Of a stretch of 38,938 bases of DNA, positions 6,933 to 38,912 are shown in pieces. The DNA comes from a virus. Its lineage: Duplodnaviria > Caudoviricetes. The stretch's first letter is position 1. The number at the start of each line of letters is the position of its first letter. Location of the stretch: positions 1-38,938 of IMG/VR virus record IMGVR_UViG_3300044738_000035. One strand, written 5' to 3'. Under the pieces are notes generated by a model that saw nothing but the letters and a program-made list of their open reading frames with translations, searched no databases and was not told the DNA's origin. A program made the translations under genes and the position numbers.

Positions 6933-7028
6933 TATCGCCGCAGATGGCGAGCGGCGCCGGCACCTATCGCCGGGAGTGGCGGTGAGCTCTCGAGCACGCG
7001 GCGGCCGTCACCGCCGGATTCAGCGATG
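6933..7028. repeat. Three tandem copies of the dispersed 20-bp palindrome (6933-6952, 6965-6984, 7009-7028)
   Basis: TATCGCCG-CAGA-TGGCGAGC, TATCGCCG-GGAG-TGGCGGTG and CACCGCCG-GATT-CAGCGATG fill the Dit-Tal intergenic gap. Confidence 0.75.
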
Positions 7029-7036
7029 AGATCTGC

Positions 7037-9277
7037 ATGAGCACCCTTAGCGCAGAAGACCAGGCCAAACTCTCAGCCCTCGAAGGACTCATCCGCGCCG
7101 CGCGCTCGGGCGGCCCGGACGCCCCGAGCCCCCGGGTCGTGGAACTGATCGCCGTGGACTGGCCCGCGCCCGACGGCCGCGTCTACTACGCCTCGACGCA
7201 GGCGGACGACACCTGGCCTTCCCTGCGCCCCGTGCTCGACGCGCTCGGCGGGGGCGAGGTCGAGCCCCGGCTCTCGGGCGGCCCCTTCCTCGACGTCATG
7301 CGCGACTCGGGCATCTCCGACGACTCGGTCTCGCTCTCCCTCTGGGACGCCGACCACGTCATCTCCGACCTCTTCGAGACGCACGGCGACGGCGCGCGCG
7401 TCGAAATCTTCTTCTACTTCCCGCAGGTGGAGTTACTGCTCAGTCAGTGGCACGGCCACCTCCGGCCGCCCGAGGACGCCGACGAGGAGACCTTCACGGC
7501 CACGGCCGAGAACGGCTTCATGTCGGTGCAGCTCCCGCTCCCTCGCCGCGCCTTCTTCAACACATGCCAGGCCGTCTTCGGCGGACTGCTCTCGACGCAG
7601 GCGGAGATAGACGAGCACGACTGCCCCTACAACCGGCACCTCGGCGGCGGCACGGGGCTCCTCGACGGCGGCGGCAACCCCTTCACCACTTGCCCGCGCC
7701 GCACGCGCGCCGACTGCGTCGCCCGCCTCGGCGACGCGCTCTCGTGGACGGGCTTCGACACGGGGATCGCCAGCTACCCCATCGGCTCGAAGGGCGTCAT
7801 CGCCACGTCGCGCGGCAACGAGACCAGGCTGAAGCGCCCGCTGCGCGTCATCTTCAACCGGCGCACCGTGCGCGACCTCGACCTCCTGGCCTACGTCGTC
7901 GAACTCGGCAACCCTTCGCACCCGGAGCGCGGGAGCATCAAGCTGCTCTATGCCATCTCCGAGGGGCGCATGCGCTGGCTCGGTCAGCCCGTCGCCAACC
8001 GCGCGCCCGTCCAGCCGCAGCACTACGCGATCCGCCTCGGCACGCCGCGCCAGCCCTCGACCGGCTTCACCGTCAACGCCAACAACTATTCGAGCACCGC
8101 CCTCCTGAACGTCGTCCTTCAGGGCGACTTCAGCAAGGTCGACCCGGCGAGCATCCAGGTCGAGATTCCGGCCGAGGGGGTTGACGACGTCCGCGCATAC
8201 GCGAGCGAAGACCCCGAAGACTTCGTCCTTCAGTACCCGGTCGAGCGGGCATGGGCTTTGCAGCACGTCTACCGCCACAAGCGTTACGGCCTCGGCGCCG
8301 ACGTGCGCCGCTTCGTACAAGCCGACTTCATTGACATCGCGGCCTGGCACGCCCAGACGATCACGTACAAGGACGCTGACGGCGTCGCCTACACGGGGAC
8401 GCGCTCGACCTTCAACGCCGAACTCGTCGACCGCACGGCGCAGCAGCAGATAAACGACATCTGCCTCGCCGGGCGCGTCACCGTGCCCTTCCCCTGGGAA
8501 GGCAAGCTCCGCGTCTTCCCGCTGAAGAAGCTCTCCGAGGAGGAGCTGGCCGCCGCGCCGGTCTTCACCGACGACCCGGACTCGGGCTTCGAGCCCAACA
8601 TCGTCCGCGACGAGCGGTCGAACAAGTCGACGCTCACGCGCTCCTCGGTCTCCGACCGCGACCTCCCGAACGCGATCAAGGTCACGCTCGACAACGACGC
8701 GAAGGACAACCAGGAGGAGCCGCTCCTCTTCGACTCGGTCGAGGCGCAGCTGCGGGCGGGGCGCGCCTTCGGTGACACGGGGCGGCGCGCCGTCGAGAAG
8801 TCCTTCGGCCTGCTCGGCGTGACGAACGTCGGCGAGGCGTCGCGCTTAGGGATTCTCCTTAGAGACCTCGGCGAGTTCGACGAGGGCGGGCTGGAGAATA
8901 ATCTGAGGATAAAGTTTCAGACCTTCTTCACGCAGACGCTCACGCTCTACAAGTCGAAGGTCATCCGCGTGCTCTCGCGCTCGCTCGTCAACCGGCGCAC
9001 CGGCGTCCAGCAGTTCGAATACTTCCGCGTCCGCTCCGTGCGCAGACTCCCGAGCCTCCTGGTCGAGGTCAGCGCGCAGGCTTACCCCGTCGCGTATTAC
9101 GCGAAGACAGAAGACATCGTGGTCGGCGAGGACGTGGGCCCCGGCGACATCATCCCGGTCAACCCGCGCCCCGACCCGAACCCCGGCGGCGCGGGCGGCG
9201 AGCGGCCGCGCCCCGTCCTGTTCGCGGGCGTCGAGACGACGGTCGACCGAATCATCCTTCAACTGGCGAGGAGCTAA
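7037..9277 (+). CDS. Tail tip/baseplate hub protein (gpL-like Cys region fused to gpJ/Tal-like hub)
   Basis: Follows Dit. Four-Cys pattern CQ..HDCPY..TCPR..DC. Hub-like region (YGLG, LPNAIKVTLD, YFRVRSVR). Confidence 0.75.
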   Translation: MSTLSAEDQAKLSALEGLIRAARSGGPDAPSPRVVELIAVDWPAPDGRVYYASTQADDTWPSLRPVLDALGGGEVEPRLSGGPFLDVMRDSGISDDSVSLSLWDADHVISDLFETHGDGARVEIFFYFPQVELLLSQWHGHLRPPEDADEETFTATAENGFMSVQLPLPRRAFFNTCQAVFGGLLSTQAEIDEHDCPYNRHLGGGTGLLDGGGNPFTTCPRRTRADCVARLGDALSWTGFDTGIASYPIGSKGVIATSRGNETRLKRPLRVIFNRRTVRDLDLLAYVVELGNPSHPERGSIKLLYAISEGRMRWLGQPVANRAPVQPQHYAIRLGTPRQPSTGFTVNANNYSSTALLNVVLQGDFSKVDPASIQVEIPAEGVDDVRAYASEDPEDFVLQYPVERAWALQHVYRHKRYGLGADVRRFVQADFIDIAAWHAQTITYKDADGVAYTGTRSTFNAELVDRTAQQQINDICLAGRVTVPFPWEGKLRVFPLKKLSEEELAAAPVFTDDPDSGFEPNIVRDERSNKSTLTRSSVSDRDLPNAIKVTLDNDAKDNQEEPLLFDSVEAQLRAGRAFGDTGRRAVEKSFGLLGVTNVGEASRLGILLRDLGEFDEGGLENNLRIKFQTFFTQTLTLYKSKVIRVLSRSLVNRRTGVQQFEYFRVRSVRRLPSLLVEVSAQAYPVAYYAKTEDIVVGEDVGPGDIIPVNPRPDPNPGGAGGERPRPVLFAGVETTVDRIILQLARS

Positions 9278-9282
9278 GAGAG

Positions 9283-9528
9283 ATGCCTTCCGACTACGCG
9301 GCTTTCGAGGTGCTGACTGACAACGACGACGGGACGTTTACGCCCGTCGCGTTGGCGACCGTGAAGGTCTACGACGTCACGCACTCGGCGGCGCTCGCCG
9401 ACACGGCCTCCGACGGCGACGGCACCGTGCCGGGCGCGACCGTGGCCGTGGACGCGGGCACGACCCTCCGGTTCAGCGTGCAGCTCGCCAACGGCCTCGC
9501 GGGCTGCGCCGAGCAAGTCACTGTCTAG
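9283..9528 (+). CDS. Small beta-rich tail protein (transthyretin/carboxypeptidase-regulatory-like fold suspected)
   Basis: PVALATVKVYD...TASDGDG pattern, in the tail operon. Confidence 0.55.
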   Translation: MPSDYAAFEVLTDNDDGTFTPVALATVKVYDVTHSAALADTASDGDGTVPGATVAVDAGTTLRFSVQLANGLAGCAEQVTV

Positions 9529-9567
9529 TCAGTAGTCAGTAGCTACTAGCTGGTAGCTGATTAACTA
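9526..9567 (+). repeat. Heptamer tandem repeat (TAGTCAG/TAGCTNN)
   Basis: tagtcag tagtcag tagctac tagctgg tagctga ttaacta. Confidence 0.7.
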
Positions 9568-9571
9568 AGTA

Positions 9572-10795
9572 ATGGACTTAATTCTCAAACCTTCCGGCGG
9601 TCAGAACATCGTGCTCCGGCCGCAGGCGCGCCCGGCGTGGTACGCCGACGCGACCGTGGACGCGCAGGAGGTCGAGCTGTTCCTTCAGGAGCTTGACTCG
9701 GAGACCGGCGCGCTCCTCGGCGGGCCGAAATCCCTCGGCCGCTTCCCGGCCACGGGTCAGGTCGTCATCCCCTACACGCCCGACGCAGACCGCAACGTCA
9801 TCGTCTACGGCATGCCCTACGCCGCCGACGGCGCGCCCGGCTACTCCGACCTCCGCCACGCCGAGCAGGCGACGATCATCTTCGCGCGCGTCACCGAGGC
9901 CCCCGTGCTCGCACAGGTCGGCGACTCGACGCCCGAGGCGATCACCGTGCAGGTGGACGCGCCCGACCAGCGATTCGTGCGCAGGCGCCGCACGAGCGTC
10001 TCACCGAACGCCGACATGAGCGACGCCTCGGTCACGGTCAAGGAGTTCGGCGCGGGCGAGGCGCCGCTCCTCATCGAGATCGGCCGCGCGGCCGCGCTCG
10101 CCCCCGCCTTCTCGTGGTCGGGCGACGACCCCGCCACGAACGGCTTCACGAAGACCGGCTCGGGCACTACGGCCGCGAGCACGACCCCCGCGGGCTGGAA
10201 GGTCACCACGACGGCTTCGGACGCCGCGACCTACTACACCAAAGACTCTTTCCCCGCCGCGCCCTTCTCGGCCGGCTTCACGCTGGAGCTGCTGCCCCCG
10301 ACGGTCAACGCCTCGGACGGCGCCGGGCTCCCCAACGATTCCGTGATGGTTCGTGTTGACGACGGCTCGAAGAAGTACGAGCTGCGCTTCAGCACGACGG
10401 CCGTCTACTTGAACGGCGGCTCGGCGCACGCCCACGGCGGCGCGCGCGTGCGCCTGGTCGTCGCCGCCGGCGGCCTCCTGGCCGACCTCTGGGTCGGCGA
10501 CACGAAGGTCGAGAACGACACGGCCGGACTCTCCACGACCGCGGCGGGGCTCGTCTTCGGCGACTTGGCCGGGGCGGACGACGCGGAGGTCGTGTGGCCG
10601 TCCCTCGCCTACGCGCTGACGTCGCAAGACCCCTTCCTCGCCGAGACGATCTTCATCACGGTCGAGCACTCGGGCGGCGGCGCGTGGGCCCCGGCCTCCG
10701 ACGTGCTCGAAGTCTCGTTCGCGAGCGAGGTGACGGGCGAGGGCGGCAGCTCCGGCGACGGAGATGAAGTCCCGCGCGACCGCTACACCCTTTAA
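9572..10795 (+). CDS. Minor tail/baseplate protein
   Basis: 407 aa beta-rich ORF in the tail operon, with a possible lectin-like insert. Confidence 0.6.
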   Translation: MDLILKPSGGQNIVLRPQARPAWYADATVDAQEVELFLQELDSETGALLGGPKSLGRFPATGQVVIPYTPDADRNVIVYGMPYAADGAPGYSDLRHAEQATIIFARVTEAPVLAQVGDSTPEAITVQVDAPDQRFVRRRRTSVSPNADMSDASVTVKEFGAGEAPLLIEIGRAAALAPAFSWSGDDPATNGFTKTGSGTTAASTTPAGWKVTTTASDAATYYTKDSFPAAPFSAGFTLELLPPTVNASDGAGLPNDSVMVRVDDGSKKYELRFSTTAVYLNGGSAHAHGGARVRLVVAAGGLLADLWVGDTKVENDTAGLSTTAAGLVFGDLAGADDAEVVWPSLAYALTSQDPFLAETIFITVEHSGGGAWAPASDVLEVSFASEVTGEGGSSGDGDEVPRDRYTL

Positions 10796-10818
10796 CAATT
10801 TGAAAAGGAGCACCTTCG

Positions 10819-13707: not shown

Positions 13708-13727
13708 AGGGGCACGGCCGGGGGCAC
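13708..13727 (+). promoter_or_regulatory. Putative integrase arm-type sites (left)
   Basis: AGGGGCACGGCCGGGGGCAC is nearly repeated at 13965-13985 on the other side of the core. Confidence 0.6.
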
Positions 13728-13768
13728 AACGAAATAGGGGCGTCCATCACGGACGCCCCTATTTCGTT
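13728..13768. terminator. Bidirectional terminator hairpin next to attP
   Basis: Perfect 18-bp stem AACGAAATAGGGGCGTCC / GGACGCCCCTATTTCGTT with a 5-nt loop, between convergent operons. Confidence 0.85.
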
Positions 13769-13778
13769 GATTCTAAAG

Positions 13779-13834
13779 TGATGCCGGAGGTCGGACTCGA
13801 ACCGACATGCCCTTGCGGACGCGAGATTTTGAGT
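13779..13834 (-). other. attP: attP core: 3' half of tRNA-Leu(CAA)
   Basis: Minus strand ACTCAAAATCTCGCGTCCGCAAGGGCATGTCGGTTCGAGTCCGACCTCCGGCA shows anticodon loop CT-CAA-AA, a long variable arm, the T arm and the acceptor 3' strand. The 5' half is absent. Confidence 0.9.
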
Positions 13835-15757: not shown

Positions 15758-16186
15758 TTAAAGGTCGCGCTCGATTCTGACGACTCTGCCCTGCACGTCG
15801 ACCTCGTGGGCGTCGAAGTAGCGCGGCTCGTATTTCTTGTTGGCGCTCGACAGGCAGGCGCGGCCCGACTGCTCGACGTGGAAGAACTTGATGACGACCT
15901 CCGAGCCGTGGCAGCAGGCGACGACGAGGTCGCCCTGGTGGACGTCTTTCGTCAGATGCACGAGCGCGAGGTCGCCGTCGAAGATACCCTTGCCCGAGAG
16001 CGAGTTGCCGCAGACGTTCGCCAGGACGAACCTGTCCGAGGGGCGCGCCCATGATGGCAGGCGCACGTCGCGGAACTGCACGATGGGGAGGAACTCAACG
16101 CCGTGACCCGCCGCGCACTGACCGACGACCGGCAGGCGGACGTACTGAATCTCCGGACTCCTCAGCCCGTTCCCGTTCCTTATCAT
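15758..16186 (-). CDS. Stand-alone S24 (LexA/UmuD/CI C-terminal) autopeptidase
   Basis: LPVVGQCAAG (Ala-Gly site), VCGNSL (Ser), GIFDGD, VIKFF (Lys), VQGRVV. No HTH. Confidence 0.88.
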   Translation of the reverse strand: MIRNGNGLRSPEIQYVRLPVVGQCAAGHGVEFLPIVQFRDVRLPSWARPSDRFVLANVCGNSLSGKGIFDGDLALVHLTKDVHQGDLVVACCHGSEVVIKFFHVEQSGRACLSSANKKYEPRYFDAHEVDVQGRVVRIERDL

Positions 16187-16580
16187 TCTGGTTGACCTTC
16201 AGCACGGGGACGCGCGCGACCTTCCCGCCGCCGCTGCCGTAGAGGTTGAAGAGCATGTCGAGGTAGCCGAGCGCGTCCGTGCGGCGCTCCGGGGGGATGG
16301 CGCGGAAGCAGTGGAGCAGGTGCAGCTCGTCGAGGCTCAGCTCGCCCTCGGCCTCCTTCCCGCGCGCCACCGCGAAGACCTCGTCCTCGGAGACGCCTAG
16401 ACCCTTCGCGAGCGAGCGGAGCGTTGCCGTCCGCACGTCTTTGGAGACGCCGTTGACGATGTCCCCTACGGTCGCGTGGCTTATGGCGCCGCCGGTCCGG
16501 CGGGAAACCTCTCTGTAATTCAGACCCTTCTCGCTAATTATCCGCCGGACGTAGTCTCTCAGGGATTCCTGTAAAGCCAT
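16095..16580 (-). CDS. XRE/Cro-C1 HTH immunity repressor (no peptidase domain)
   Basis: LNYREVSRRTGGAISHATVGDIVNG...TLRSLAKGLGVS HTH. Divergent from the cro-like gene. Likely ATG 16580. Confidence 0.85.
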   Translation of the reverse strand: MALQESLRDYVRRIISEKGLNYREVSRRTGGAISHATVGDIVNGVSKDVRTATLRSLAKGLGVSEDEVFAVARGKEAEGELSLDELHLLHCFRAIPPERRTDALGYLDMLFNLYGSGGGKVARVPVLKVNQNDKERERAEESGDSVRPPAGRRSVRGGSRR

Positions 16581-16591
16581 CACGACGGGCA

Positions 16592-16692
16592 GTCTAGTTC
16601 TCTTTACGTCAAGAATGTCGTTTGACTTGTAAAAAAGACTTGACATATATTTCAGGAGGGGAATACACTCCGCTCCGTCAAGTTTACTTGAC
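16592..16692. promoter_or_regulatory. Immunity switch: three GTCAAG-N4-CTTGAC-like operators and rightward sigma70-type promoter
   Basis: GTCTAG-TTCT-CTTTAC 16592-16607, GTAAAA-AAGA-CTTGAC 16629-16644, GTCAAG-TTTA-CTTGAC 16677-16692. TTGACA 16640 to TACACT 16664 with an 18-nt spacer. Confidence 0.75.
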
Positions 16693-16706
16693 AGAAGGAG
16701 AGGCGA

Positions 16707-16919
16707 ATGCACAACCCGATTCCAATCAAAGTCGCGATGGTGAGAAAGGGGATCAACGGCGAGCAGCTCGCTGAGCTGGCAAACCTCTCGCGCCCGACCG
16801 TCTCGCGCATCGTCAACGGTAAGCAGGTGCTGCCGACCAACCTCGAAGCCGCTCTAAGGGTGCTCGGCCTGAAGATGGCCGAGGTCTACGAGTCCGAGGA
16901 AGAGCCGTCCGCGGCGTGA
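16707..16919 (+). CDS. Cro-like HTH regulator
   Basis: 70 aa XRE HTH (EQLAELANLSRPTVSRIVNG), AAGGAG RBS, divergent from the repressor. Confidence 0.88.
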   Translation: MHNPIPIKVAMVRKGINGEQLAELANLSRPTVSRIVNGKQVLPTNLEAALRVLGLKMAEVYESEEEPSAA

Positions 16920-19445: not shown

Positions 19446-20360
19446 ATGACGCAAGGGCTACAGACAATTCCCGCCGGGCAGACGCTCGCGGTCTCCGAGT
19501 GGGAGGCGATGAAGGAGCAGGCCGGCATGCTCGTCAAGACGGGCTTCCTGCCTCCGTCGATCAAGACGGCCGAGCAGGCGGTCGCGATCATCATGACGGG
19601 GCGCGAGCTGAACATCCCGCCGATGGCCGCGCTCAACAACATCAACGTCATCCAGGGGAAGCCCACCATCTCGCCGCAGTTGATGCTCGCGCTCATCAAC
19701 CGCTCGCGCCAGCTCGAAAACTTGGAGGTCGTCACCGGCGCCGAGGGCGCCATCGTCACGATGAAGCGGCGGGGGCGCGCGCCCTACGTCGCACGCTTCG
19801 GCCCCGAAGAGGCGAAGAAGATGGGGCTCGCGGGGAAGGACAACTACAGCAAGCAGGCGGGGACGATGTATCAGTGGCGCGCCGTGGCGATGGCCGCGCG
19901 CACCGTCTTCCCCGACGACATCCTCGGCCTCTTCACGCCCGAGGAGATGGGCGCGACGACCAGCGTCAGCGACACGGCCGAGATGATTGTTGAGGACTTA
20001 CCCGTCGCGCGCGCCGTCGAGCACAACTTCGTCGAGGGCGAGTTGGTCGAGGCCGACGATGCCGAAGATCATCCCGTGACCCTGAAGGCGCGCGTGCACG
20101 AACTCTGCGGCCTGCTGAATAAGGCCGGCTACCAGCCGAAGTGGTCGGACGTGACGCTGAAGGCTTTCGTCAAGGAGTGGTACATGGCCGAGAGCCTCGA
20201 CGCGATGTCCGTGCGCGACCTGAAGAAGCTCGTCGCCGACTTCGAGAAGAAGCTCGCGGCGCTTCAGTCCGAGGATGACGCCGAGCGCAGCCTCGCGGGC
20301 TCGCGCGCGAAGAGTGCCGTCAGCCGCGCGGCAGAGGCGCAGGAAGGGGGGCAGGGCTGA
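19446..20360 (+). CDS. RecT/Red-beta-like single-strand annealing protein
   Basis: GRELNIPPMAALNNINVIQGKPTIS and MYQWRAVAMAARTVFPDDILGLFTPEEM motifs. Confidence 0.75.
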   Translation: MTQGLQTIPAGQTLAVSEWEAMKEQAGMLVKTGFLPPSIKTAEQAVAIIMTGRELNIPPMAALNNINVIQGKPTISPQLMLALINRSRQLENLEVVTGAEGAIVTMKRRGRAPYVARFGPEEAKKMGLAGKDNYSKQAGTMYQWRAVAMAARTVFPDDILGLFTPEEMGATTSVSDTAEMIVEDLPVARAVEHNFVEGELVEADDAEDHPVTLKARVHELCGLLNKAGYQPKWSDVTLKAFVKEWYMAESLDAMSVRDLKKLVADFEKKLAALQSEDDAERSLAGSRAKSAVSRAAEAQEGGQG

Positions 20361-21457
20361 TGGTCACACCCTTCACCTCCACGAAACCGAAACCGGCCAG
20401 CGGGCAGCCGACGAACGTGGCCATCCGCGACCAGCGCGACGCGCTGAAGGCCGACGGCTGGAAGTTCCGCGACTACGCCGACGGGCGCTGGATGGGGACG
20501 CATAAGGCGCGCGGGCTGAAGACGGCCAAGCACGACAGCATGGTCGAGGTCATCTACGAGGCCGCCCGGCTGGCCGAGACGCCCGTCGCCGAGGCTGTCG
20601 AGGCTGGCACCCCCGCCGCAGAGAGAGAGCTTGAGGAGCTGCGCGAGGTGTACGGCGAGGCCGGCAGCCACGCCGAAGCCAACGAGGGCAGTGCATACGA
20701 GGGGCAGGACGTCGCGGCGCTCCTGGAGGCCACTGAGCGCGAGCAGCGGGGGCGCTGGGAGGCGCTCGGCCAGATTGAAGAGAACCTCAAGCACGGCCAC
20801 GGCAAGCGGCGCACGAAGGAGCTTGAGAAGGAGAGGGGCAATCTCCTCTCTCTCTACGAGGGAACCTACTCGGAGGTCGCCGACGCGAGCGGCCACGAGG
20901 CAGCCGAGCAGATGCGCGAGCGCGTCGAGACTGAACACCGCCCCGACGACGTGCCCGCGTCGGCCGACCCCGCCACATCCGGCGATGACTCCGGAGCTGC
21001 TATCACCGCCGCCGACGGCGATGTCGTCGAGCACACCCCTGCACCCGACGCTGCATCCGCCGAGCCGAGTCTGAAGGACAAACTCGTCGAGCGCCACAAC
21101 GGCAACGTCTCCGAGCCGCGCACCTTCCGCGAGACCGTCGAGGTCAAGTTCAACGACCACGACATCGCCGAGCGGGCGCGCACCCTCTCGCTCCTGCGCG
21201 TCCAGATCGAGGAGCTGACCGCCGAGATGCAGAAGACGGTCAAGGGGTACAAGGACAAGCTCGCGGGACTCGAAGAGCAGTGCGCGGAGCTGTTCAGGGC
21301 CATCCGCCGCGGGCACGACGAGCTGGAGCTGGAGGTCTACGAGCGCCGCGACTACGACCGGCACACGGTCGAGCTGCGGCGCTTCGACACCTGCGAACTC
21401 ATCTCGGAGCGACCGATGCGGCCGACCGAGATGCAGCCGCCGCTGCCGTCAATCTAG
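20360..21457 (+). CDS. Hypothetical phage protein (coiled-coil C-terminal domain)
   Basis: Coupled to the upstream gene. Its linker carries two copies of the dispersed palindrome. Confidence 0.7.
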   Translation: MVTPFTSTKPKPASGQPTNVAIRDQRDALKADGWKFRDYADGRWMGTHKARGLKTAKHDSMVEVIYEAARLAETPVAEAVEAGTPAAERELEELREVYGEAGSHAEANEGSAYEGQDVAALLEATEREQRGRWEALGQIEENLKHGHGKRRTKELEKERGNLLSLYEGTYSEVADASGHEAAEQMRERVETEHRPDDVPASADPATSGDDSGAAITAADGDVVEHTPAPDAASAEPSLKDKLVERHNGNVSEPRTFRETVEVKFNDHDIAERARTLSLLRVQIEELTAEMQKTVKGYKDKLAGLEEQCAELFRAIRRGHDELELEVYERRDYDRHTVELRRFDTCELISERPMRPTEMQPPLPSI

Positions 21458-21883: not shown

Positions 21884-22525
21884 ATGATTGTTAGCAAGCT
21901 GTCAGACCTTCCTAAAGAGTACGCCTGCAAGCTCTGCGGCGCGACGAAACCCGTGGCCGAGATGGTTGTTCGGCGACGGCGCGAGCTGAACGGCTTCTGC
22001 CTCCAGCCCCGTTGCAAGGAGTGCCACAACGCGCGCGAGCGCGGTCACCGGCGTGAGTACAAGCGCAAATACCTTCAACGCTGGAGGAAGAAAAACGCGG
22101 CGGTCGCCAAGTCTTACTGGAAAGACCATCCCGAATACTTGGAGCGCAGCCGTGAGAGCGCGGCGCGCTACGTCGAGAAACATCGAGACGCGCTGGCCAT
22201 CCGCCGGCGGCTGAAGTCTCGCGGCATCGAGGTCAGCGTCGCCGAGGCCGAGGAGCTGCTGAAGCAGTATGGCCGCTGCTACCCGACGCGCTTCGGCCTC
22301 ACGCCGGAAGGGCTGAAAGAGTGCGAGCGCATCCGGTCGAGGATGCGCCAGCGCGGCGGCAAGGTTCTGTCATCCGTCGAGATTCGCATCATGGTCTACG
22401 AGGACGGCCACTACATCACGCCGAGCCGTCAGCCCAAGCCATATCAGAAGGCGGCCGCACGGTTACGTGAGTGGCGGAGCGGCCAGTCATCGCCGTCGCT
22501 GACGAGCGGCGCCGGCACTTCTTAA
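21884..22525 (+). CDS. Basic zinc-finger protein (CxxC...CxxC)
   Basis: CKLC...CKEC followed by a long Arg/Lys helix. No HNH motif seen. Confidence 0.65.
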   Translation: MIVSKLSDLPKEYACKLCGATKPVAEMVVRRRRELNGFCLQPRCKECHNARERGHRREYKRKYLQRWRKKNAAVAKSYWKDHPEYLERSRESAARYVEKHRDALAIRRRLKSRGIEVSVAEAEELLKQYGRCYPTRFGLTPEGLKECERIRSRMRQRGGKVLSSVEIRIMVYEDGHYITPSRQPKPYQKAAARLREWRSGQSSPSLTSGAGTS

Positions 22526-22534: not shown

Positions 22535-22756
22535 ATGCCAATCGACATCAAAGACCTCGACGACCTCTTCACCTATCACCCGCCCGACGACTCGCAGCGC
22601 GTGGCCTACGAGCGCATCCGACAGGGCGCGCACGAGTTCTCCTTCATCCTGCTTCAGAACACGCCGCCGAGCGCCGACCAGACGGCCGCCATCCGCAAGC
22701 TGCGCGAGTGCGTGATGACGGCCAACGCGGCGGTCGCGCTGAAGGGCAAGTTCTGA
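22535..22756 (+). CDS. Acb2/Tad1-like helical-hairpin protein (candidate anti-defence nucleotide sponge)
   Basis: FTYHPP...Q...YERIR...P...AAIRKLRECVMTANAAVA pattern, recalled from the Acb2/Tad1 hairpin family. AAGGAGG RBS. Confidence 0.65.
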   Translation: MPIDIKDLDDLFTYHPPDDSQRVAYERIRQGAHEFSFILLQNTPPSADQTAAIRKLRECVMTANAAVALKGKF

Positions 22757-22801: not shown

Positions 22802-23647
22802 ATGTACGTCCCAGACGACGCGAAACAGAGACGGCGACTCGACAGGCTCACCTCGGCCGAGTGGTACGTCTACGAGGCGCACTGCGAAAGGCGCATGGCG
22901 AAGACCGGCCTCAGTGACGCCACGAACGCGGAGATCGCCGAGCGCGAGCACCTCGCCCTGAAGACCGTCCAGAACGCGATGTCGAAGTTGCGCAAACTAG
23001 GATGGCTCCAGGTCGAGGAGGGGGGCGTCCGGCTCCTCGTCGGGGACTTCCACCCGGTAGATAAGAAGCACGCGAAGGCTTCCCTGAGCAGGGAACCGGA
23101 GGCCGAATCCATTCCCTATACAGGGAACCTCTTTCCCGATATGGGGAACGACCTTCCCTGTACAGGGAATGAGCTTCCTTGTACAGGGAACGATGCATAT
23201 ATAGGAACGCGCGCGCGTTCTGACCAGCCTTTACCAGCCACCAGCACACACACACCAGCACCGGCGAGCGCGCCCCCGGCGGACGAGGCGCCTGCGGCGC
23301 GTGTGTGTGTGCTCTCGTTCGAAGACTACCTCGGCTACGCGCAGAGCGAGCCGGGCTTCACGAACCCGCCGGCGTGGGCGATGAAGCACTTCGCGCTGCG
23401 CGACGCCGACCCGCTCGTCGCCGGGTGGAAGGGGCGGCGCGAGCTGGTGCTCGAAGGGCGCGCGCCCGTGGAGACGCAGCTCACGCCGTACCACGTCGCG
23501 GCGCAGACGGTCGCGTCGGTCGCGCAGTTGCCGGGCTACGACGTGGCGGGCTACATCGAGCAGATGCAGGAGGTTAGCGAGGAGACCAGGGCGAAGCTGC
23601 GCCGCACGTTCCTGGTGGCCCCGGCGCGCGCGCACGCCCCGCCGTGA
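22802..23647 (+). CDS. Replication initiator (lambda O-like organisation)
   Basis: N-terminal wHTH (NAEIAEREHLALKTVQNAMSKLRKLGWL) and internal iteron-encoded repeats. Confidence 0.8.
   Translation: MYVPDDAKQRRRLDRLTSAEWYVYEAHCERRMAKTGLSDATNAEIAEREHLALKTVQNAMSKLRKLGWLQVEEGGVRLLVGDFHPVDKKHAKASLSREPEAESIPYTGNLFPDMGNDLPCTGNELPCTGNDAYIGTRARSDQPLPATSTHTPAPASAPPADEAPAARVCVLSFEDYLGYAQSEPGFTNPPAWAMKHFALRDADPLVAGWKGRRELVLEGRAPVETQLTPYHVAAQTVASVAQLPGYDVAGYIEQMQEVSEETRAKLRRTFLVAPARAHAPP
23112..23190. repeat. Origin iterons: four 16-bp palindromes at a 21-bp period
   Basis: TTCCCTATACAGGGAA 23112, TTCCCGATATGGGGAA 23133, TTCCCTGTACAGGGAA 23154, TTCCTTGTACAGGGAA 23175. Confidence 0.88.
23243..23313. repeat. 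13-bp inverted repeat downstream of the iterons
   Basis: AGCACACACACAC 23243-23255 / GTGTGTGTGTGCT 23301-23313. Confidence 0.75.
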
Positions 23648-24700: not shown

Positions 24701-24963
24701 GATTCAACCCCGTGCTCGCGCTCGCGGCCGCCTTCGGCTTTGGCTACACCGGCGGGGGCGGCTACGACCCGCTCGACACCCGCGTCGAGCGCGCGGCGGC
24801 CGCGAGACAGAACCGGGCGGCGCGCGCCGAGGGGCGCTACTACGCCGAGACGGTCGCGCCGCTCTACGTCGCCCCCGTCTACGTCACACCGCGCGTCGAG
24901 TTCGTCATCGTCGCGCCGATCTGTTTCAAGCTCAGGCGCGGAGTCCTTCACCGCCGCCGATGA
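24697..24963 (+). CDS. Hypothetical protein
   Basis: ATGA-coupled start at 24697 with a hydrophobic N-terminus. Confidence 0.5.
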   Translation: MRFNPVLALAAAFGFGYTGGGGYDPLDTRVERAAAARQNRAARAEGRYYAETVAPLYVAPVYVTPRVEFVIVAPICFKLRRGVLHRRR

Positions 24964-24996
24964 CGATGTCCGCGGACATCGCTGTAACTGACGAGG
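24949..24996. repeat. Two copies of the dispersed palindrome
   Basis: CACCGCCG-CCGA-TGACGATG 24949-24968 and CATCGCTG-TAAC-TGACGAGG 24977-24996. Confidence 0.7.
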
Positions 24997-25230: not shown

Positions 25231-25515
25231 ATGAAGCGAAGCGAGCACAAATGCGCGGCCTGTAATAGCCCATGCAAAAGCGAGTATCCATTCTGCGCGG
25301 CATGCTGGCGATGGGTGCCGAAGGATTTGAAGCAGCCGGTTCGCGACGCGCTCGCGCTGCGCGGCACGCCCGACCTCGACCGCTCGGCGCTCTACTACGC
25401 GGTTACGAATGCCGCGGCCTCAGTGCCGTCATTCGTTGACACGCCCGGCGCTCAGCGTTGGGAGCGGTTATGGAAGAAGGCGGGATTGCCTGAGCTGGAG
25501 GTCGTAGGGAGATGA
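25231..25515 (+). CDS. Zinc-finger protein
   Basis: CAAC...FCAACWRWVP. Confidence 0.65.
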   Translation: MKRSEHKCAACNSPCKSEYPFCAACWRWVPKDLKQPVRDALALRGTPDLDRSALYYAVTNAAASVPSFVDTPGAQRWERLWKKAGLPELEVVGR

Positions 25516-26252
25516 CCTACCCAGGCGGAAAGAACGGCGCGGGCGTCTACCAGCAGCTCATCAACCTGATGCCGCCCCATCACACCTACGTCGAGCCCTT
25601 CCTCGGCGGCGGCGCCATCCTCCGCCTGAAGAAGCCCGCGCGACTCAACATCGGCATAGACGTTGACGCCGACGTCGTCGCGCGCTTCCGATCGACGACA
25701 CCGCCGGAACTGGCGAGTCCGCCGGCGGCATCGCTGAAGCTGATGGTGGGCTCCGGAATCGAGTTCCTGAAGTCGCACCCCTGGCGCGGCGGCGAGCTGG
25801 TCTACTGCGACCCGCCATACTTACGCTCCGCGATAAGTACCTCGCGCCCCTTCTACCGCCACACGATGACCGACGCCGAGCACGCCGACCTCCTGCGCAC
25901 GCTCCGGCGCCTACCGCCGGGAGTGATGGTGATGCTCTCCGGCTATCACTCGGAGATGTACGCGCGCGCTCTCTCGCGCTGGCGGCTGCACACCTTCGAG
26001 GCCGTGAAGAGGAGCGGGCGCAAGGGCGTCGAGCACGTCTGGATGAACTACCCCGAGCCGCTCGCGCTTCACGACTACCGCTATCTGGGACGGGACTTCC
26101 GCGAGCGCGAGCGCATCACGAGGAAGAAGCGGCGCTGGCGGAAGAAGTTGGAGGGCATGCCCGCGCTTGAGAGGTACGCGATTCTTTCGGAGATCGAGGA
26201 GCTGGGCGAGCTCACCGCCGGGGGCGGCGATGTCGGCCGAGTGAGGTTATGA
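25512..26252 (+). CDS. DNA N6-adenine methyltransferase (Dam/D12 class) with basic C-terminal extension
   Basis: YPGGK, YVEPFLGGGA (motif I), YCDPPY (motif IV), MLSGY, EHVWMNY. Confidence 0.9.
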   Translation: MTYPGGKNGAGVYQQLINLMPPHHTYVEPFLGGGAILRLKKPARLNIGIDVDADVVARFRSTTPPELASPPAASLKLMVGSGIEFLKSHPWRGGELVYCDPPYLRSAISTSRPFYRHTMTDAEHADLLRTLRRLPPGVMVMLSGYHSEMYARALSRWRLHTFEAVKRSGRKGVEHVWMNYPEPLALHDYRYLGRDFRERERITRKKRRWRKKLEGMPALERYAILSEIEELGELTAGGGDVGRVRL

Positions 26253-31887: not shown

Positions 31888-31904
31888 GGCGGGAGGGAAT
31901 CGAG

Positions 31905-34471: not shown

Positions 34472-34482
34472 CGAGGTGAATC

Positions 34483-35094
34483 ATGCGCCTGAAGTTCTAC
34501 ATTAACATCGGCGGCATATGCCACAACCACAACGAGGCCGCCGCGGAAGGGGGCGGGGCGCCGACTCCCGCACCCGCGCCGGCGCCGCCCGCCACTCCCG
34601 GCGATGCTGGCTCGAGCACGGCGGTTGAGCCGCCCGCCCCGGCCGCAGTCGAGCCGCCCGCGGCCCCGGCCGTGCCCGACGGCTACGTGCCCGCGACCGA
34701 GGTCGAGACCGAGCGCACCGCGCGCACGGCCGCGGAGACGGCGCGCGCCGACGCAGAAACCCGCGCGACCACGTTGGCGGCGAGCCTGCGAGCTGCACAG
34801 ATTCGCGAGGCCGCGCGCGACCTGAGCTTTAACGACCCGGCCGACGCGGAGAAGTTCGTCGGCGCGGACGTGGAAGACGTGGGCGCGCACCTCGCCGAGG
34901 TCATCAAGACGAAGTCGTATTTGGTGAAGTCGGCCGAGGCGCCGGTCATCCCGCCCGTCACGCCGACGACGCCGACGAACCCCGCGCGCGACAATGCGCC
35001 CGCCGTCACCCGCGAATCACTCAAGCAGATGACGCAGGAGCAAGTCTCGAAGCTGCCGTGGTCGGTCGTCTCGGCCGCGCTCAAGCAGACATAG
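34483..35094 (+). CDS. Capsid scaffolding protein
   Basis: Pro/Ala-rich N-terminus and coiled coil, directly upstream of the MCP gene. Confidence 0.75.
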   Translation: MRLKFYINIGGICHNHNEAAAEGGGAPTPAPAPAPPATPGDAGSSTAVEPPAPAAVEPPAAPAVPDGYVPATEVETERTARTAAETARADAETRATTLAASLRAAQIREAARDLSFNDPADAEKFVGADVEDVGAHLAEVIKTKSYLVKSAEAPVIPPVTPTTPTNPARDNAPAVTRESLKQMTQEQVSKLPWSVVSAALKQT

Positions 35095-35124
35095 TCTTTG
35101 ACTTTTAGAGTCTGACTGAAATAT

Positions 35125-35174
35125 AAGTGCAGCTAATAAGTGCGTGCGACACTTATTAGCTGCACTTTCTTTTC
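35125..35174 (+). terminator. 18-bp perfect hairpin with T-rich tail between scaffold and MCP genes
   Basis: AAGTGCAGCTAATAAGTG-CGTGCGA-CACTTATTAGCTGCACTT then TCTTTT. Confidence 0.6.
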
Positions 35175-35210
35175 GCACACCCCGATTAGCCTTCCAAAAA
35201 GGAGCACCGC

Positions 35211-36062: not shown

Positions 36063-36147
36063 GGGCCGGCTGACCCGCGAGACCCGGACGCATCGTCGCC
36101 GCGCGCGATGATGCCGGCGTTCACCCTTCAATGAGGAGAGTAGAGAG

Positions 36148-36543
36148 ATGGCGCTTCTTACCGCACTGACAGTCACCGACCTGACCGCGAACGGCTCCGT
36201 CGCGCAGCCCGCAGTCAACACCATTGACACCAACGGCACTGTGCCCGTGGCCATCGCGAGCGCGCACGAGCGCGTCCTGCTCGAAGTCATCAACGCCGAC
36301 GACGCGGCGCTGACCGTCACCGTCGAGTCGGGGAGCGAAGGCGCGGGCGCCGGGCGCGCCGGCATCGGCGACCTGGTCGTCGCGCTCTCGGCCACGGGCG
36401 GCGGCACTGACAAGAAGATCATCGGCCCCTTCGAGCCGGCGCGCTTCATGCAGGCCGACGGCAAGCTGAACGTCACCTTCACGGCGGCGACCGGCGCGCC
36501 CAACGCGACCGTGCGCTGCTACCGCCTGCCGAAGTCGGCCTGA
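36148..36543 (+). CDS. Probable capsid decoration/head protein
   Basis: Beta-rich 131 aa protein after MCP (IIGPFEPARFMQADG). Confidence 0.55.
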   Translation: MALLTALTVTDLTANGSVAQPAVNTIDTNGTVPVAIASAHERVLLEVINADDAALTVTVESGSEGAGAGRAGIGDLVVALSATGGGTDKKIIGPFEPARFMQADGKLNVTFTAATGAPNATVRCYRLPKSA

Positions 36544-36553
36544 AGGTAGCGCC

Positions 36554-36901
36554 GTGCCCTGGTACGTCAACACAAAGACGGGCGTTCGGTGGGACATCGG
36601 GGATGAAGTCACCCTCAAGATAGTCCGCGCCGACCCCGTCTTCGAGCCCTGCGAATCGCCCCAAGCGCCTGCGCAGGCCGAAGACCCCGGCGGAGCTGCC
36701 GAGAGGGTGCTCCCGGTAGAGACGGGCGGCGGGATTGTTCGTCCCGCCGCCCCTCCGCCGGGGCCGTCCGTCGTCGGTGAGGGCGGGCCCGAGGTCTTCA
36801 TCCCCCAACAACCACAAGGAGCGGCGAGCGATGTCAGTCCGTCCGGCGATGGAAAGCCTGATCAGCGAGCTAAGGGCGCTGGTCGGCGACGTGGTCGGTG
36901 A
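36554..36901 (+). CDS. Small head-associated protein carrying a TMP-C-terminus-like motif
   Basis: Short folded N-terminus, then TGGGIV...VVGEGGPEVFIP. Confidence 0.5.
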   Translation: MPWYVNTKTGVRWDIGDEVTLKIVRADPVFEPCESPQAPAQAEDPGGAAERVLPVETGGGIVRPAAPPPGPSVVGEGGPEVFIPQQPQGAASDVSPSGDGKPDQRAKGAGRRRGR

Positions 36902-37199
36902 AGGCAAGACCCCGGCCTTCACCGACGAAGAGATTCAGACGCGGCTCGACCGCACGCTCGACGGCGTCGCGGTCGCGGACGCGGTCGAGGCTGACTTCGA
37001 CGTCTGGTCGGCGGCGGCCGACGTCTGCGAGATGTGGGCGGCGCGCCTCAAAGACGACGTGGATTTCAAGGACGGCAACCGCGAGGTGAAGGACTCCCAG
37101 AAGGCGGCCGGGCTTCTCGTCCTGGCCGGCCGCTTCCGCCAGCGTTCCGACCGCGGCGTCGGCGTCGGCTCTCTGACGAACTCCGACTACAACACATGA
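36831..37199 (+). CDS. Head-tail adaptor
   Basis: AAGGAG RBS. ELRALVGD...FTDEEIQ..L...AAADVCEMWAA is typical of adaptors. Confidence 0.75.
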   Translation: MSVRPAMESLISELRALVGDVVGEGKTPAFTDEEIQTRLDRTLDGVAVADAVEADFDVWSAAADVCEMWAARLKDDVDFKDGNREVKDSQKAAGLLVLAGRFRQRSDRGVGVGSLTNSDYNT

Positions 37200-37534
37200 G
37201 CCCGGCCGAGCGTGCAGCCAAGATGCTGGAGCGCGAGCGCGAGAAGTTCCTCGGCGCCGGGGCCCAGCTCACTCTCTACGACAACGCGGGCGCGGCGCTC
37301 GTCGTGCTCTCCAATTCGTTCATGGTGGCGAAGAAGACCGACGTCTTGCTCGGCGAGGAGTACCACAGGGCGGAGATAGCCGAGGTCGCGGGCATGACGC
37401 AGGCGATTGCCTCGCGCGTGAAGACCGCGAAGCTCTCGACGATGACCTCGACGTTCACCGTCTCGCAGACGGAAGAGCCGACGACGGCCGCGCGCACCTG
37501 GGTTTTGCGCATGTCGCCCTTCAAAAAGTCGTAA
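37196..37534 (+). CDS. Head closure/stopper-like protein
   Basis: ATGA-coupled, beta-rich, follows the adaptor gene. Confidence 0.55.
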   Translation: MSPAERAAKMLEREREKFLGAGAQLTLYDNAGAALVVLSNSFMVAKKTDVLLGEEYHRAEIAEVAGMTQAIASRVKTAKLSTMTSTFTVSQTEEPTTAARTWVLRMSPFKKS

Positions 37535-38109
37535 TGTCCGAACTTCCCACGCCCACCGACTACGAGCTGCGCGCCGCGATGGTGGCCATCATCGCCGCGG
37601 CCGACGCTGCGGCGCTCGTCTACTCCGACTGGAAGATCGAGCTGGTCGAGGGGCGAAGCCTGAATGCCGCGCGCAACGAGGAAGGCGGCGAGCCGGGCAT
37701 GGTACACGCGGCCATGATGACGCAGCGGCACAGCCCCCGCGAGCGCGTCGGAGACGTCCCCTATGAGCCCTCGAAGACCTCGGGGACGAAGTTCGCGGTA
37801 CTGACCGCGCGCGTCTACGAGTTCCGCTTCTTCCGCCGCTACGACGACGTGCCCGAAGTCGTCACCGTCGGGGAGGGCGAGGAGGCCGAGGAGGTCTCGA
37901 AGTCAACCGAGCAGCTCTTCAACGAGTGGCTCGACCGCGTCGTTGACGGCTTCTCGAAGGCCCCGAGGCTGGGCCTGAACGCGCGCGTCGAGCGGCACGA
38001 CGAGCTGCAAGTCTCGAACCGGCGCGTCCCCTCCTACGGCGGGGAGTACGCGCACACAGCGGACGCTCTGCTGACCGTCCATCTACACGAAACAGTCACG
38101 GCAACTTAA
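37534..38109 (+). CDS. Tail terminator-like protein
   Basis: TAATG-coupled, directly upstream of the tail tube gene. Confidence 0.55.
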   Translation: MSELPTPTDYELRAAMVAIIAAADAAALVYSDWKIELVEGRSLNAARNEEGGEPGMVHAAMMTQRHSPRERVGDVPYEPSKTSGTKFAVLTARVYEFRFFRRYDDVPEVVTVGEGEEAEEVSKSTEQLFNEWLDRVVDGFSKAPRLGLNARVERHDELQVSNRRVPSYGGEYAHTADALLTVHLHETVTAT

Positions 38110-38121
38110 GGAGCACCGACC

Positions 38122-38889
38122 ATGTACTTTCTTCTTCGCGGCAACGTGGACATAGCCGAACGGCTCACGACCGGCGAGCCCGGCCCGCTTCAGGAGTTGG
38201 GCGAGACGCCCGACTTCGAGATCACGATTGACGAGGAGCGCGCCGAGAACATGAGCACCGGCGGCGTCTTCAACGAGAAAGACCTGAGCGTGACGACCTA
38301 CCTCGGCGCGAAGGGCACGATGCGGGTCAAGGAGATCGAGGGCAACAACCTCGCGCTCGCCATGTTCGGCGAGGAGTCGGCCGACGCGGGCGGCGCCGTC
38401 ACGGCGCAGGCGTTCCCCTCCGGCATCGTGGACGGCGAGAAGCACCTCCTCCCGGGGCATCCCCTGAACGTCTCCGCGCTCTCTATCGTCGACAGCGCCG
38501 TCACCCCCGCCACGCTCGCCCTCGGCTCCGACTACACGGTCGACCTGGACTTCGGCACCGTCACCTTCCTCGACGTCTCGGGCTTCACGCAGCCCTTCAA
38601 GGCGAGCTTCACCGAGGGCGCGTCGAAGGGCGTGGCCATCGGCACGAAAGTCCCCGGCGAGAAGTTCGTCTACTTCCGGGGCGTCAACATCGCCGACGAG
38701 GAGAAGCCGGTCGCGGGCGAGTTCTACCGGACGAAGTTCTCGCCGTCGAAGAAGATCACGCTCAAGACGGCCGACGGCAAGGAGGTCACGGTCTTCGAGT
38801 TCGAGCTTGAATTCCTGGCCGACCCGAAGAAGACGGCCGTCGCGCCGCTCGGCCGCCTCGGCCGCCTGCGCTACATCCCCAGCTCGTGA
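38122..38889 (+). CDS. Major tail (tube) protein
   Basis: ELGETPDFEITI, NNLALAMFG, DYTVDLDFGTVTFL, FEFELEFLADP. Confidence 0.85.
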   Translation: MYFLLRGNVDIAERLTTGEPGPLQELGETPDFEITIDEERAENMSTGGVFNEKDLSVTTYLGAKGTMRVKEIEGNNLALAMFGEESADAGGAVTAQAFPSGIVDGEKHLLPGHPLNVSALSIVDSAVTPATLALGSDYTVDLDFGTVTFLDVSGFTQPFKASFTEGASKGVAIGTKVPGEKFVYFRGVNIADEEKPVAGEFYRTKFSPSKKITLKTADGKEVTVFEFELEFLADPKKTAVAPLGRLGRLRYIPSS

Positions 38890-38892
38890 TCC

Positions 38893-38912
38893 TCTCGCCG
38901 TAACTGACGAGG
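38893..38912. repeat. Copy of the dispersed palindrome
   Basis: TCTCGCCG-TAAC-TGACGAGG shares GTAACTGACGAGG with 24977-24996. Confidence 0.65.

What the first reader, a model, noticed from the sequence alone, without database searches (positions are those of the whole stretch)
6933..38912. Genome-wide dispersed 20-bp palindrome CMYCGYCR-N4-YGRCGRKG: candidate new protein-site system
Seen (start positions): 6933, 6965, 7009, 20968, 21004, 22488, 24949, 24977, 25699, 25729, 26213, 31787, 34261, 34587, 36091, 38893, with weaker or half copies at 3444, 10741, 23250, 36832, 37590 and 38914. Spacing is a fixed 4 nt between 8-bp arms. Copies fall in intergenic gaps, gene 3' ends or disordered linkers, often as pairs starting 28-44 bp apart. 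Distant copies share flanks: CGAGCGGCGCCGGCAC after 6933 and 22488, GGCGATGACTCCGG after 20968 and 34261, GTAACTGACGAGG in 24977 and 38893. No clear copy was seen in the int/immunity region. The motif matches neither the immunity operators nor the iterons. Inference: dimer-binding sites spread through lytic regions. They could be stoperator-like silencers, parS-like or packaging/condensation sites, or loading or target sites for the phage methyltransferase, whose gene is their hotspot.
Basis: partly seen in the sequence, partly recalled or inferred. Interest (0 to 1): 0.88.

Follow-up and report, generated by a model that had tools for sequence, protein, structure and literature searches.

The report
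Methylase operators flanked by restriction sites
This phage scatters about 20 copies of a 20-letter palindrome that is likely the binding site of its own methylase-like protein (a relative of the plasmid protein Upf31), and beside most copies it keeps a host restriction-enzyme site with an A or C exactly five letters out, which the protein likely methylates so that the site survives travel and would then serve as a probe for the host's restriction systems.

Summary
The palindrome is real. The 16 main copies hold up; the 6 weak ones mostly do not. It is the unexplained inverted repeat of IncP-1beta plasmids, and the phage gene at 25512-26252 is 48% identical to their Upf31, a shown self-repressor.

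Across 156 related loci the sites crowd around this gene. The base five letters outside each edge is A/C in 92-93% of flanks and usually lies in a host restriction-modification site, mostly at the base that cognate methylases mark. CTCGAG, GAGCTC, AGATCT and CGATCG occur in this genome only there.

One residue of the C-terminal basic helix (E/Q200) tracks one base of the site. On conjugative plasmids the risky 6-cutter sites have that base on the transferred strand; phages show no such bias. This points to a strand-specific mark written by the protein itself.

The purpose is inferred: armoured probes for host restriction systems that set gene expression. A genome-wide guide role is disfavoured. 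The scan found this system before on other DNA (e1-10006447, e1-10211759); the strand bias and the residue-base match are not in the lines of those notes that I saw.

The parts
25512..26252 (+). Upf31-family gene: Dam-fold amino-methyltransferase without the target-recognition domain, plus C-terminal helical domain (246 aa)
   Evidence: PF02086; 48% identity over 232 aa to pBP136 Upf31; model pLDDT 85, best folds Dam/DpnM, Z 16.7, rmsd 3.2, 160 aligned
25593..25616 (+). SAM-binding motif I (EPFLGGGA)
   Evidence: E28, F30, G32 invariant in 31 aligned homologs
25668..25757 (+). short loop where Dam has its target-recognition domain; holds two operators and varies in length in homologs because operator arrays insert here
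25809..25820 (+). catalytic DPPY motif
   Evidence: invariant in 31 of 31 aligned
26058..26219 (+). C-terminal domain: predicted dimer interface and basic helix (RERER 26100-26114; E200 tracks base 4/17 of the site)
   Evidence: Y191/F196/W209 correspond to Upf31 Y180/F185/W198, which are needed for repression (PMC11997246)
6933..7034 (.). intergenic array of three operators (6933, 6965, 7009) with flanks GGCC, overlapping GGCGCC/GCCGGC (shared 12-nt spacer), GAGCTC/CTCGAG (6984-6994), CGGCCG, AGATCT (7029-7034)
   Evidence: 40 bp of it are 97.5% identical to the array behind the methylase gene of L147
20968..21023 (.). operator pair in a linker of gene 20360-21457; flanks CGGCCG, TCCGGA, GCAGC, TCGA
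22488..22507 (.). operator at the 3' end of the HNH-like gene; right flank GGCGCC/GCCGGC
24949..24996 (.). operator pair upstream of the gene run that ends in the methylase; shared CCGCGG spacer (24970-24975), outer flanks GACTC and CCAGG
   Evidence: both sites conserved in L081
25699..25748 (.). operator pair inside the methylase loop; shared GCCGGC spacer, outer flanks CGATCG (25689-25694) and TCCGGA
25912..25931 (.). probable operator inside the methylase gene (9.5 bits; left flank GGCGCC/CCGG)
26213..26232 (.). operator at the methylase 3' end; flanks GAGCTC and CGGCCG
   Evidence: conserved in L081
31787..31812 (.). doubtful site at the terminase 3' end (31787 scores 1.6 bits, 31793 scores 7.9 with a CGGCCG flank)
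   Evidence: conserved in L081
34261..34280 (.). operator (8.8 bits), right flank CCGG
34587..34616 (.). operator in the scaffold linker with GGCGCC/GCCGGC and the genome's second CTCGAG (34611-34616)
36091..36110 (.). intergenic operator after the capsid gene (7.1 bits); flanks CCGG and GCCGGC
37590..37609 (.). possible operator (9.5 bits; left flank TGGCCA)
38893..38912 (.). operator after the major tail gene; flanks GATC and GACGTC

Best explanation
The palindromes are likely operators for the phage's own Upf31-type protein, a predicted dimer that would grip the 20-mer with its C-terminal basic helices and likely methylate the A or C five bases outside each edge, where the phage keeps a host restriction-modification site, so the site would travel protected and would then act as a probe of the new host's restriction systems that likely tunes the protein's binding and the genes it controls. 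Shown here: the site, its tie to the gene, the +5 A/C register, the restriction sites and the strand bias on plasmids. Shown in print for plasmid Upf31: repression of its own promoter, which needs the C-terminal domain. Inferred: the reading helix, methyl transfer at +5, and above all the purpose. After replication in a new cell, host methylases and restriction enzymes would compete with the protein for these flanks; a panel of many sites lets any one host system change occupancy. The anatomy (operator plus self-written mark at +5) is about 0.75 likely; the probe purpose brings the whole to 0.45.
For: Site-gene link: 3.2 and 2.5 sites/kb within 200 bp of the gene against 0.10-0.15 beyond 500 bp in 160 loci; 18 and 20 sites in pB3 and pBP136 against 0 in the fetched 50 kb of three IncP-1 plasmids of other subgroups; lone exact matches in IMG/VR show background flanks, 17 of 128. 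Operator: 36 of 68 gene-proximal sites directly follow a -35-like hexamer; Upf31 cuts its promoter from 4.76 to 0.09 units, and C-terminal mutants lose this (PMC11997246). Dimer: score 0.72 against best control 0.25 (mark reached by 20 of 30 solved homodimers and 1 of 23 single chains; runs share at least 43% of contacts; pLDDT at least 79), with the interface in the C-terminal helices. Reading helix: with E200 (116 proteins) base 4/17 is C in 1017 of 1064 half-sites; with Q200 (28 proteins) it is A in 202 of 258. Q200-R201 with A-type sites appears at four places in a tree built without that domain. Ruler: A/C at +5 in 92% of 629 and 93% of 626 flanks; 179 of 288 spacers hold a 6-bp palindrome against 59 +/- 6 shuffled, and there is no 9-nt spacer among 302; window 26 of 32 flanks against 11.5% background. 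15 of 20 motifs checked sit at a position seen methylated in PMC4752239 table S4. Host-tailored: GANTC in 24 of 112 flanks of Alphaproteobacteria loci and 0 of 452 in the other labelled groups. Self-written mark: DPPY invariant; purged 6-cutters have their +5 base on the transferred strand in IncP-1beta (11:1, 14:1, 11:1, 5:0), Acinetobacter (5:0, 5:1) and Shewanella (3:1) plasmids, but 42:40 in viral loci. Host marks lie on both strands and would give no such bias. Regulatory output: with Upf31 the anti-restriction gene klcA is about 5.7-fold higher.
Against: No methylation by Upf31 has been seen: SMRT sequencing of a methylase-free strain was negative, though pBP136 and its arrays were not in that strain. 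If the protein writes +5 itself, a host mark at the same base adds no obvious signal, so the sensing step is not worked out. 5 of 20 motifs sit at a position other than the one in PMC4752239 (GATATC, GGCGCC, CCGCGG, GTAC, AGGCCT). One plasmid (L232) shows 0:1 against the strand bias, the four IncP-1beta plasmids are one family, and outside IncP-1 the transferred strand is assumed from the relaxase gene. No partner or output gene is conserved beside the methylase, and many copies lie in linkers, not promoters. Q200-D201 proteins mostly keep C-type sites, and the tree's starred branches do not rule out one origin. The published model puts DNA binding in the N-terminal domain and the effect on KorB. 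No GATC flank appears among those printed for the Gammaproteobacteria clade, although these hosts are expected to have Dam (recalled).
Confidence: 0.45

Rival explanations
1. One reading: the protein no longer transfers methyl groups. It flips the +5 base and binds differently when the host has marked it, acting as a pure methylation-sensing repressor.
For: No methylation detected and repression shown. 15 of 20 registers match observed host marks of all three chemistries. GANTC, target of the orphan methylase CcrM, is listed only in Alphaproteobacteria. 4-bp cores extend to 6-bp sites in 48-83% against 14-27% background, so one base can report on several enzymes.
Against: It leaves purged 6-cutters unprotected on entry (pBP136: CTGCAG 6 in all, 0 outside the arrays). 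It does not predict the transferred-strand bias. It cannot use positions no listed host enzyme marks (GATATC at A4 in 29 of 29). The catalytic and SAM motifs are invariant.
Confidence: 0.2
2. Armoured sites without sensing. Either an addiction device that borrows host restriction enzymes as the toxin (lose the gene and the element is cut on entry), or hemimethylated landing pads that draw host methylases onto the incoming DNA.
For: Fits writing at +5, the strand bias, the lack of partner genes, repeated panels in neutral places and copying of whole site-plus-flank units.
Against: Addiction gives only weak selection for adding each in-register site, yet 75% of flanks fit the catalogue. Neither explains the regulon-wide effect of Upf31.
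Confidence: 0.15
3. DNA-templated programmable methylase: each flank is a template that tells the specificity-less enzyme which restriction sites to methylate elsewhere on the element.
For: The enzyme lacks a target-recognition domain. The arrays read like a list of restriction sites with the base to be marked in fixed register. Listed motifs are marginally less depleted nearby (residual p = 0.053 for 6-mers, 0.043 for 4-mers).
Against: Many listed 6-mers have no copy elsewhere (window CTCGAG 0 outside, 52 expected). IncP-1beta backbones avoid them as hard as subgroups without the gene. GATC stayed unmethylated in genomic DNA of a dam strain carrying pBP136. A lysogen with a homolog (L149) shows none of its listed motifs in its methylome. 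I know no precedent.
Confidence: 0.1
4. Loading sites for a non-specific methylase that spreads along phage DNA, or stoperator-, parS- or packaging-type sites.
For: Dispersed copies; related Dam-fold phage enzymes are non-specific (PMC3299994).
Against: None of these needs restriction sites at +5. There is no relaxed avoidance and no rise of sulA or tisB with Upf31 (umuD up 0.4 log2). No ParB family hit among 48 ORFs.
Confidence: 0.05

Closest known systems
Upf31 and the clustered inverted repeats of IncP-1beta plasmids (Elg et al. 2025, PMC11997246; repeats first described by Thorsted et al. 1998, not read)
   Same: 48% identical protein with the same C-terminal aromatic residues; the same 20-mer (my matrix finds 18-20 copies in pB3 and pBP136); the same +5 rule.
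   Different: Here it is in a temperate phage with no KorB. The paper treats the gene as nearly confined to IncP-1beta among plasmids and leaves the repeats 'without any explanation of purpose'. In the sections I read it does not mention restriction sites at +5, a strand bias or a second site variant.
Dam/DpnM alpha-class adenine methyltransferases, and non-specific prophage enzymes Hia5/Hin1523/Nma1821 (PMC3299994)
   Same: Fold, motif I and DPPY in alpha order.
   Different: No target-recognition domain (Hia5 keeps about 90 residues there); an extra dimer helix pair; a long operator instead of a short target; below the TIGR00571 cut-off (42 against 114.85 bits).
Methylation-controlled operators such as Mu mom (OxyR and Dam) and self-repressing methylases such as M.SsoII (recalled, not looked up)
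   Same: A modification gene set by a dyad operator and by nearby methylatable sites.
   Different: Those use one host enzyme or one operator. This system uses tens of operators with a panel of many restriction sites in fixed register.
Multispecific Bacillus phage methyltransferases (recalled)
   Same: A phage enzyme linked to a list of several restriction targets.
   Different: Their list is protein domains that protect the whole genome. Here the list is DNA, and no genome-wide protection is visible.

Membership tests
Upf31 / IncP-1beta repeat system | full-length homology including the C-terminal domain | tested here: met
   48% over 232 aa; Y191, F196, W209 kept
Upf31 / IncP-1beta repeat system | clustered 20-bp inverted repeats around the gene and elsewhere on the element | tested here: met
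   one matrix finds the top window sites and 18-20 plasmid sites
Upf31 / IncP-1beta repeat system | repression of its own promoter through the repeat | not testable with these tools
   operator follows a -35-like box in 36 of 68 homolog loci; no clear TTGACA before the window's 24949/24977 pair
Upf31 / IncP-1beta repeat system | IncP-1 backbone with KorB as proposed partner | tested here: not met
   phage genome; no ParB/KorB family hit among 48 ORFs
Dam-family (alpha class) methyltransferase | motif I before DPPY, Dam fold | tested here: met
Dam-family (alpha class) methyltransferase | target-recognition domain between the motifs | tested here: not met
   about 40-60 residues separate motif II from DPPY, longer only where arrays insert
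Dam-family (alpha class) methyltransferase | methylates GATC | not testable with these tools
   negative for plasmid Upf31 (PMC11997246)
Non-specific prophage methyltransferases (Hia5 type) | broad adenine methylation and a retained, divergent recognition region | tested here: inconclusive
   region absent here; activity not testable; no relaxed site avoidance
Stoperators | asymmetric, oriented site tied to the immunity repressor (definition recalled) | tested here: not met
   symmetric dyad that follows the methylase across phages and plasmids
parS/ParB | ParB-family partner | tested here: not met
   no hit; no conserved neighbour
RNA-guide arrays (CRISPR, TIGR) and REP hairpins | oriented repeats or base-paired stems | tested here: not met
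   no arm covariation within or between sites; both sides equal; arrays often lie upstream of the promoter

The most novel reading that the evidence does not exclude
The arrays are DNA programmes. The specificity-less enzyme, bound at a repeat, uses the neighbouring restriction site as a base-pairing template to methylate matching sites on the same molecule (single-stranded intermediates or newly gained cargo DNA): a DNA-guided, host-tailored anti-restriction methylase.
Probability: 0.1. Interest if true: 0.98.

Novelty: new variant of a known kind. Interest (0 to 1): 0.85.

Why it matters
The IncP-1beta repeats have been unexplained since 1998, and Upf31 was called a non-methylase in 2025 on a test without the plasmid's arrays. 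The +5 rule names the exact bases to examine, explains why that test could be blank, and extends the system to phages of many phyla. If true, mobile elements carry a one-protein device that addresses a base by distance, not by sequence, and keeps protected samples of host restriction sites to gauge host defences. I know no described system that works this way. It would also give a site-tethered A/C methylase whose specificity may shift with one residue.

Tried and rejected
Hairpin or RNA guide: no covariation of arms. Template-switch origin of palindromic spacers: neighbouring arms are hardly more complementary than chance, and sides with no neighbour show the same peak. Peptide-repeat artefact: copies lie in different frames and between genes. 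A register set by the cut position does not fit one offset (by inspection, with recalled cut sites); the methylatable base does. Relaxed avoidance: none in 85 loci (O/E 0.77 listed against 0.74 unlisted) or in 5 IncP-1 backbones. Cleavage by E. coli methyl-directed nucleases as the cause of the K-12 cost: no SOS rise in the three genes found of six searched. A conserved partner gene: none, the largest neighbour family being in 19 of 156 loci. Exact-consensus scan of IMG/VR: 65 matches, 1 with the gene in the fetched stretch, so mostly chance. Terminase relatives L237-L239 (68-77% identity) show no methylase and 0, 0 and 1 convincing site, but only 18-22 kb of each was fetched. No solved structure of the family appeared; the C-terminal domain was barely covered by that search. 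The first tree run did not finish; the FastTree run has weak deep support. Sota 2007 is not held.


Full report
Setting. The window is a 38,938-bp temperate phage (integrase, repressor, terminase, portal, capsid, tail). Its two ends join in frame, so it is probably a whole circle opened inside a gene, although the record is classed as linear and 49% complete. Its closest relative found is a prophage in an Acidobacteria genome bin (L081, 68-94% DNA identity in syntenic blocks).

Observation. The palindrome is enriched against dinucleotide and codon-preserving shuffles. These loci are the best 80 of 381 viral and the best 80 of 387 genome matches. The 16 main sites stand, with 31787 doubtful. 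The weak copies mostly do not. 33601, 33681 and probably 25912 were missed. Arms vary independently, as in a protein-bound duplex.

The sites belong to the methylase gene. The gene at 25512-26252 has 4,384 homologs among 5,800 candidates. It has a Dam fold with invariant motif I and DPPY, no target-recognition domain, and two extra C-terminal helices. In homologs the start, the loop in place of the missing domain and the tail carry variable arrays of the palindrome. Density is 3.2/kb just upstream, 1.3/kb in the gene, 2.5/kb just downstream and 0.10-0.15/kb beyond 500 bp. In 36 of 68 loci with a gene-proximal site, that site directly follows a -35-like hexamer. A homodimer through the C-terminal helices is predicted: 0.72 against best control 0.25; the mark is reached by 20 of 30 solved homodimers and 1 of 23 single chains; the runs share at least 43% of contacts; pLDDT is at least 79. 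Homologs from Gammaproteobacteria that lacked this site carry a variant, CATAGWCA-N4-TGWCTATG, with the same kind of flanks. Residue 200 of the basic helix, which is not in the predicted interface, tracks the changed base. E200 goes with C (1017 of 1064 half-sites, 116 proteins) and Q200 with A (202 of 258, 28 proteins); four of five Q200-D201 proteins keep C. Q200-R201 falls at four places in a tree built without that domain, but deep support is weak and one origin is not excluded.

It is the Upf31 system. The family includes upf31.0 of IncP-1beta plasmids (137 plasmid records at 80% coverage or more; 48% identity), and my matrix finds 18 and 20 strong sites in pB3 and pBP136. I read the introduction, results parts 2-5, discussion, methylation methods and supplement rows of Elg et al. 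2025 (PMC11997246). Upf31 represses its own promoter, which contains one repeat, and needs its C-terminal domain for that. With the plasmid present it derepresses the Kor regulons, including klcA (log2 2.5; anti-restriction, abstract of PMC2836571). SMRT sequencing showed no methylation in a methylase-free strain that had the gene on a vector but not pBP136. GATC stayed unmethylated in a dam strain with pBP136. The repeats are said to lack any explanation. I could not read Thorsted 1998 or Sota 2007. I recall, unverified, that older IncP-1beta papers noted restriction-site clusters at the repeats, so that association may be in print. Ten searches listed no paper on a fixed register or on phages; the library lacks most subscription papers, and preprint supplements are closed.

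The +5 rule. Spacers between sites are restriction sites: 179 of 288 spacers of 6-20 nt hold a 6-bp palindrome, against 59 +/- 6 in 500 shuffles, and sides with no neighbouring site show the same peak. The base five letters 3' of each edge is A or C in 92% of 629 right and 93% of 626 left flanks. 960 of 1,278 flanks fit a catalogue of site-and-position pairs at +5, against 7-17% at other offsets. That catalogue was drawn from the same loci; the independent checks are the window (26 of 32 against 11.5%) and chance matches (17 of 128). Against methylated positions in Blow et al. 2016 (PMC4752239, rows of tables S3 and S4), 15 of 20 motifs agree, including both positions of CTCGAG, GCCGGC, CCGG and TCGA. 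GATATC, GGCGCC, CCGCGG, GTAC and AGGCCT do not. Spacer length follows: 6 nt for position 5, 8 for position 4, 10 for position 3, 12 for position 2, and no 9-nt spacer among 302. The panel is host-tailored: GANTC fills 24 of 112 flanks in 11 of 12 Alphaproteobacteria loci, 0 of 452 flanks in the other labelled groups, and 1 of 4 in an unclassified proteobacterium. In the window CTCGAG (2 copies), GAGCTC (2), AGATCT (1) and CGATCG (1) occur only beside operators, against 52, 24, 6 and 10 expected elsewhere.

Who writes the mark. In conjugation one strand enters the recipient. For IncP-1 it is the template strand of the tra, kle and klc genes (passages of PMC7314908; a nick-like sequence is on that strand in pB3 and was not matched by my pattern in pBP136). 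For the other plasmids I assumed the template of the relaxase gene. Six-letter sites purged from the rest of the plasmid have their +5 base on that strand in four IncP-1beta plasmids (11:1, 14:1, 11:1, 5:0), two Acinetobacter plasmids (5:0, 5:1) and one Shewanella plasmid (3:1). One Xanthomonas plasmid goes 0:1. Of the 12 plasmids examined, the other four had a single site or no assigned strand. Viral loci are even, 42:40. Host methylases mark both strands, so a strand bias is best explained by a mark that the element's own protein places at +5 before transfer (inference). The invariant catalytic motif and the five non-cognate registers point the same way.

What it is for. The flanking sequence can matter only to host restriction-modification enzymes or as a base-pairing template. 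The template reading is disfavoured. Listed and unlisted motifs are about equally depleted in 85 loci. IncP-1beta backbones avoid listed 6-mers as hard as three subgroups without the gene. Many listed sites have no target elsewhere. The published methylome of a lysogen with a homolog shows none of its listed motifs. The only outputs shown for the family are regulatory, so I commit to armoured probes: self-protected restriction sites that let host enzymes modulate operator occupancy. The weak step is how a host enzyme is sensed if the protein can write the same base. No effector gene is conserved. Rivals are a pure reader (0.2), addiction or landing pads (0.15), a DNA-guided methylase (0.1) and spreading or stoperator roles (0.05).

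Novelty and verdict. The protein and repeats are known from plasmids, so this is a new variant of a known kind, with an undescribed mechanism at its core. I had recorded the +5 reading before the first look-up. Two earlier notes of this scan on other genomes reached the Upf31 link, and one the five-letter register with a sensing role; they are not independent support. The strand bias, the residue-base match and the avoidance tests are not in the lines of those notes that I saw. Interest 0.85: a question open since 1998 becomes a one-plasmid experiment.

Noticed in passing
window 15758-16712 (-): The immunity repressor is in two overlapping reading frames: a helix-turn-helix ORF (16095-16712) and a LexA-type S24 peptidase ORF (15758-16186); a split gene or a frameshift.
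   Followed up: no
window 22535-22756 (+): Acb2/Tad1-like signal-sponge protein (PF24729, E 2e-11), directly after the operator at 22488.
   Followed up: no
window 23112-23193: Four 21-bp iterons inside the replication initiator gene.
   Followed up: no
window 13727-13833: A long perfect hairpin and, on the minus strand, what reads as the 3' half of a tRNA-Leu(CAA) gene next to the integrase end: probable attP. Read by eye; no tRNA scan run.
   Followed up: no
window 38928-38938 and 1-430: The contig ends join into one open frame, so the genome is probably complete.
   Followed up: yes
whole window: Extreme avoidance of many 6-bp palindromes (AGCGCT, AGGCCT, CTGCAG, ACCGGT, CACGTG all 0 copies). 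Terminase relatives without the methylase in the fetched stretch also lack CTCGAG.
   Followed up: partly
L003, 5.6-5.9 kb downstream of its methylase gene: A 12-site array far from the gene, with a second 4-site array at 1.9 kb.
   Followed up: no
Alphaproteobacteria-like loci (L091, L092, L114 and others): Flanks use GAWTC 26 times and GASTC once, against 148 and 61 in the same loci overall; the Gammaproteobacteria clade shows no GATC flank.
   Followed up: partly
L099, L100, L103, L113, L125: AT-rich homologs, two of them in archaeal bins, seem to keep only one diverged operator behind TTGACA or TTGCAT and no array.
   Followed up: no
L322 (pAOVO02) 6352-8171: An IncP-1beta plasmid carries its own cytosine methylase and restriction enzyme beside upf31 and between two arrays.
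   Followed up: no
L200, L201: Exact consensus sites with both flanks in register but no methylase in the fetched stretch; the gene may lie elsewhere on those contigs.
   Followed up: no
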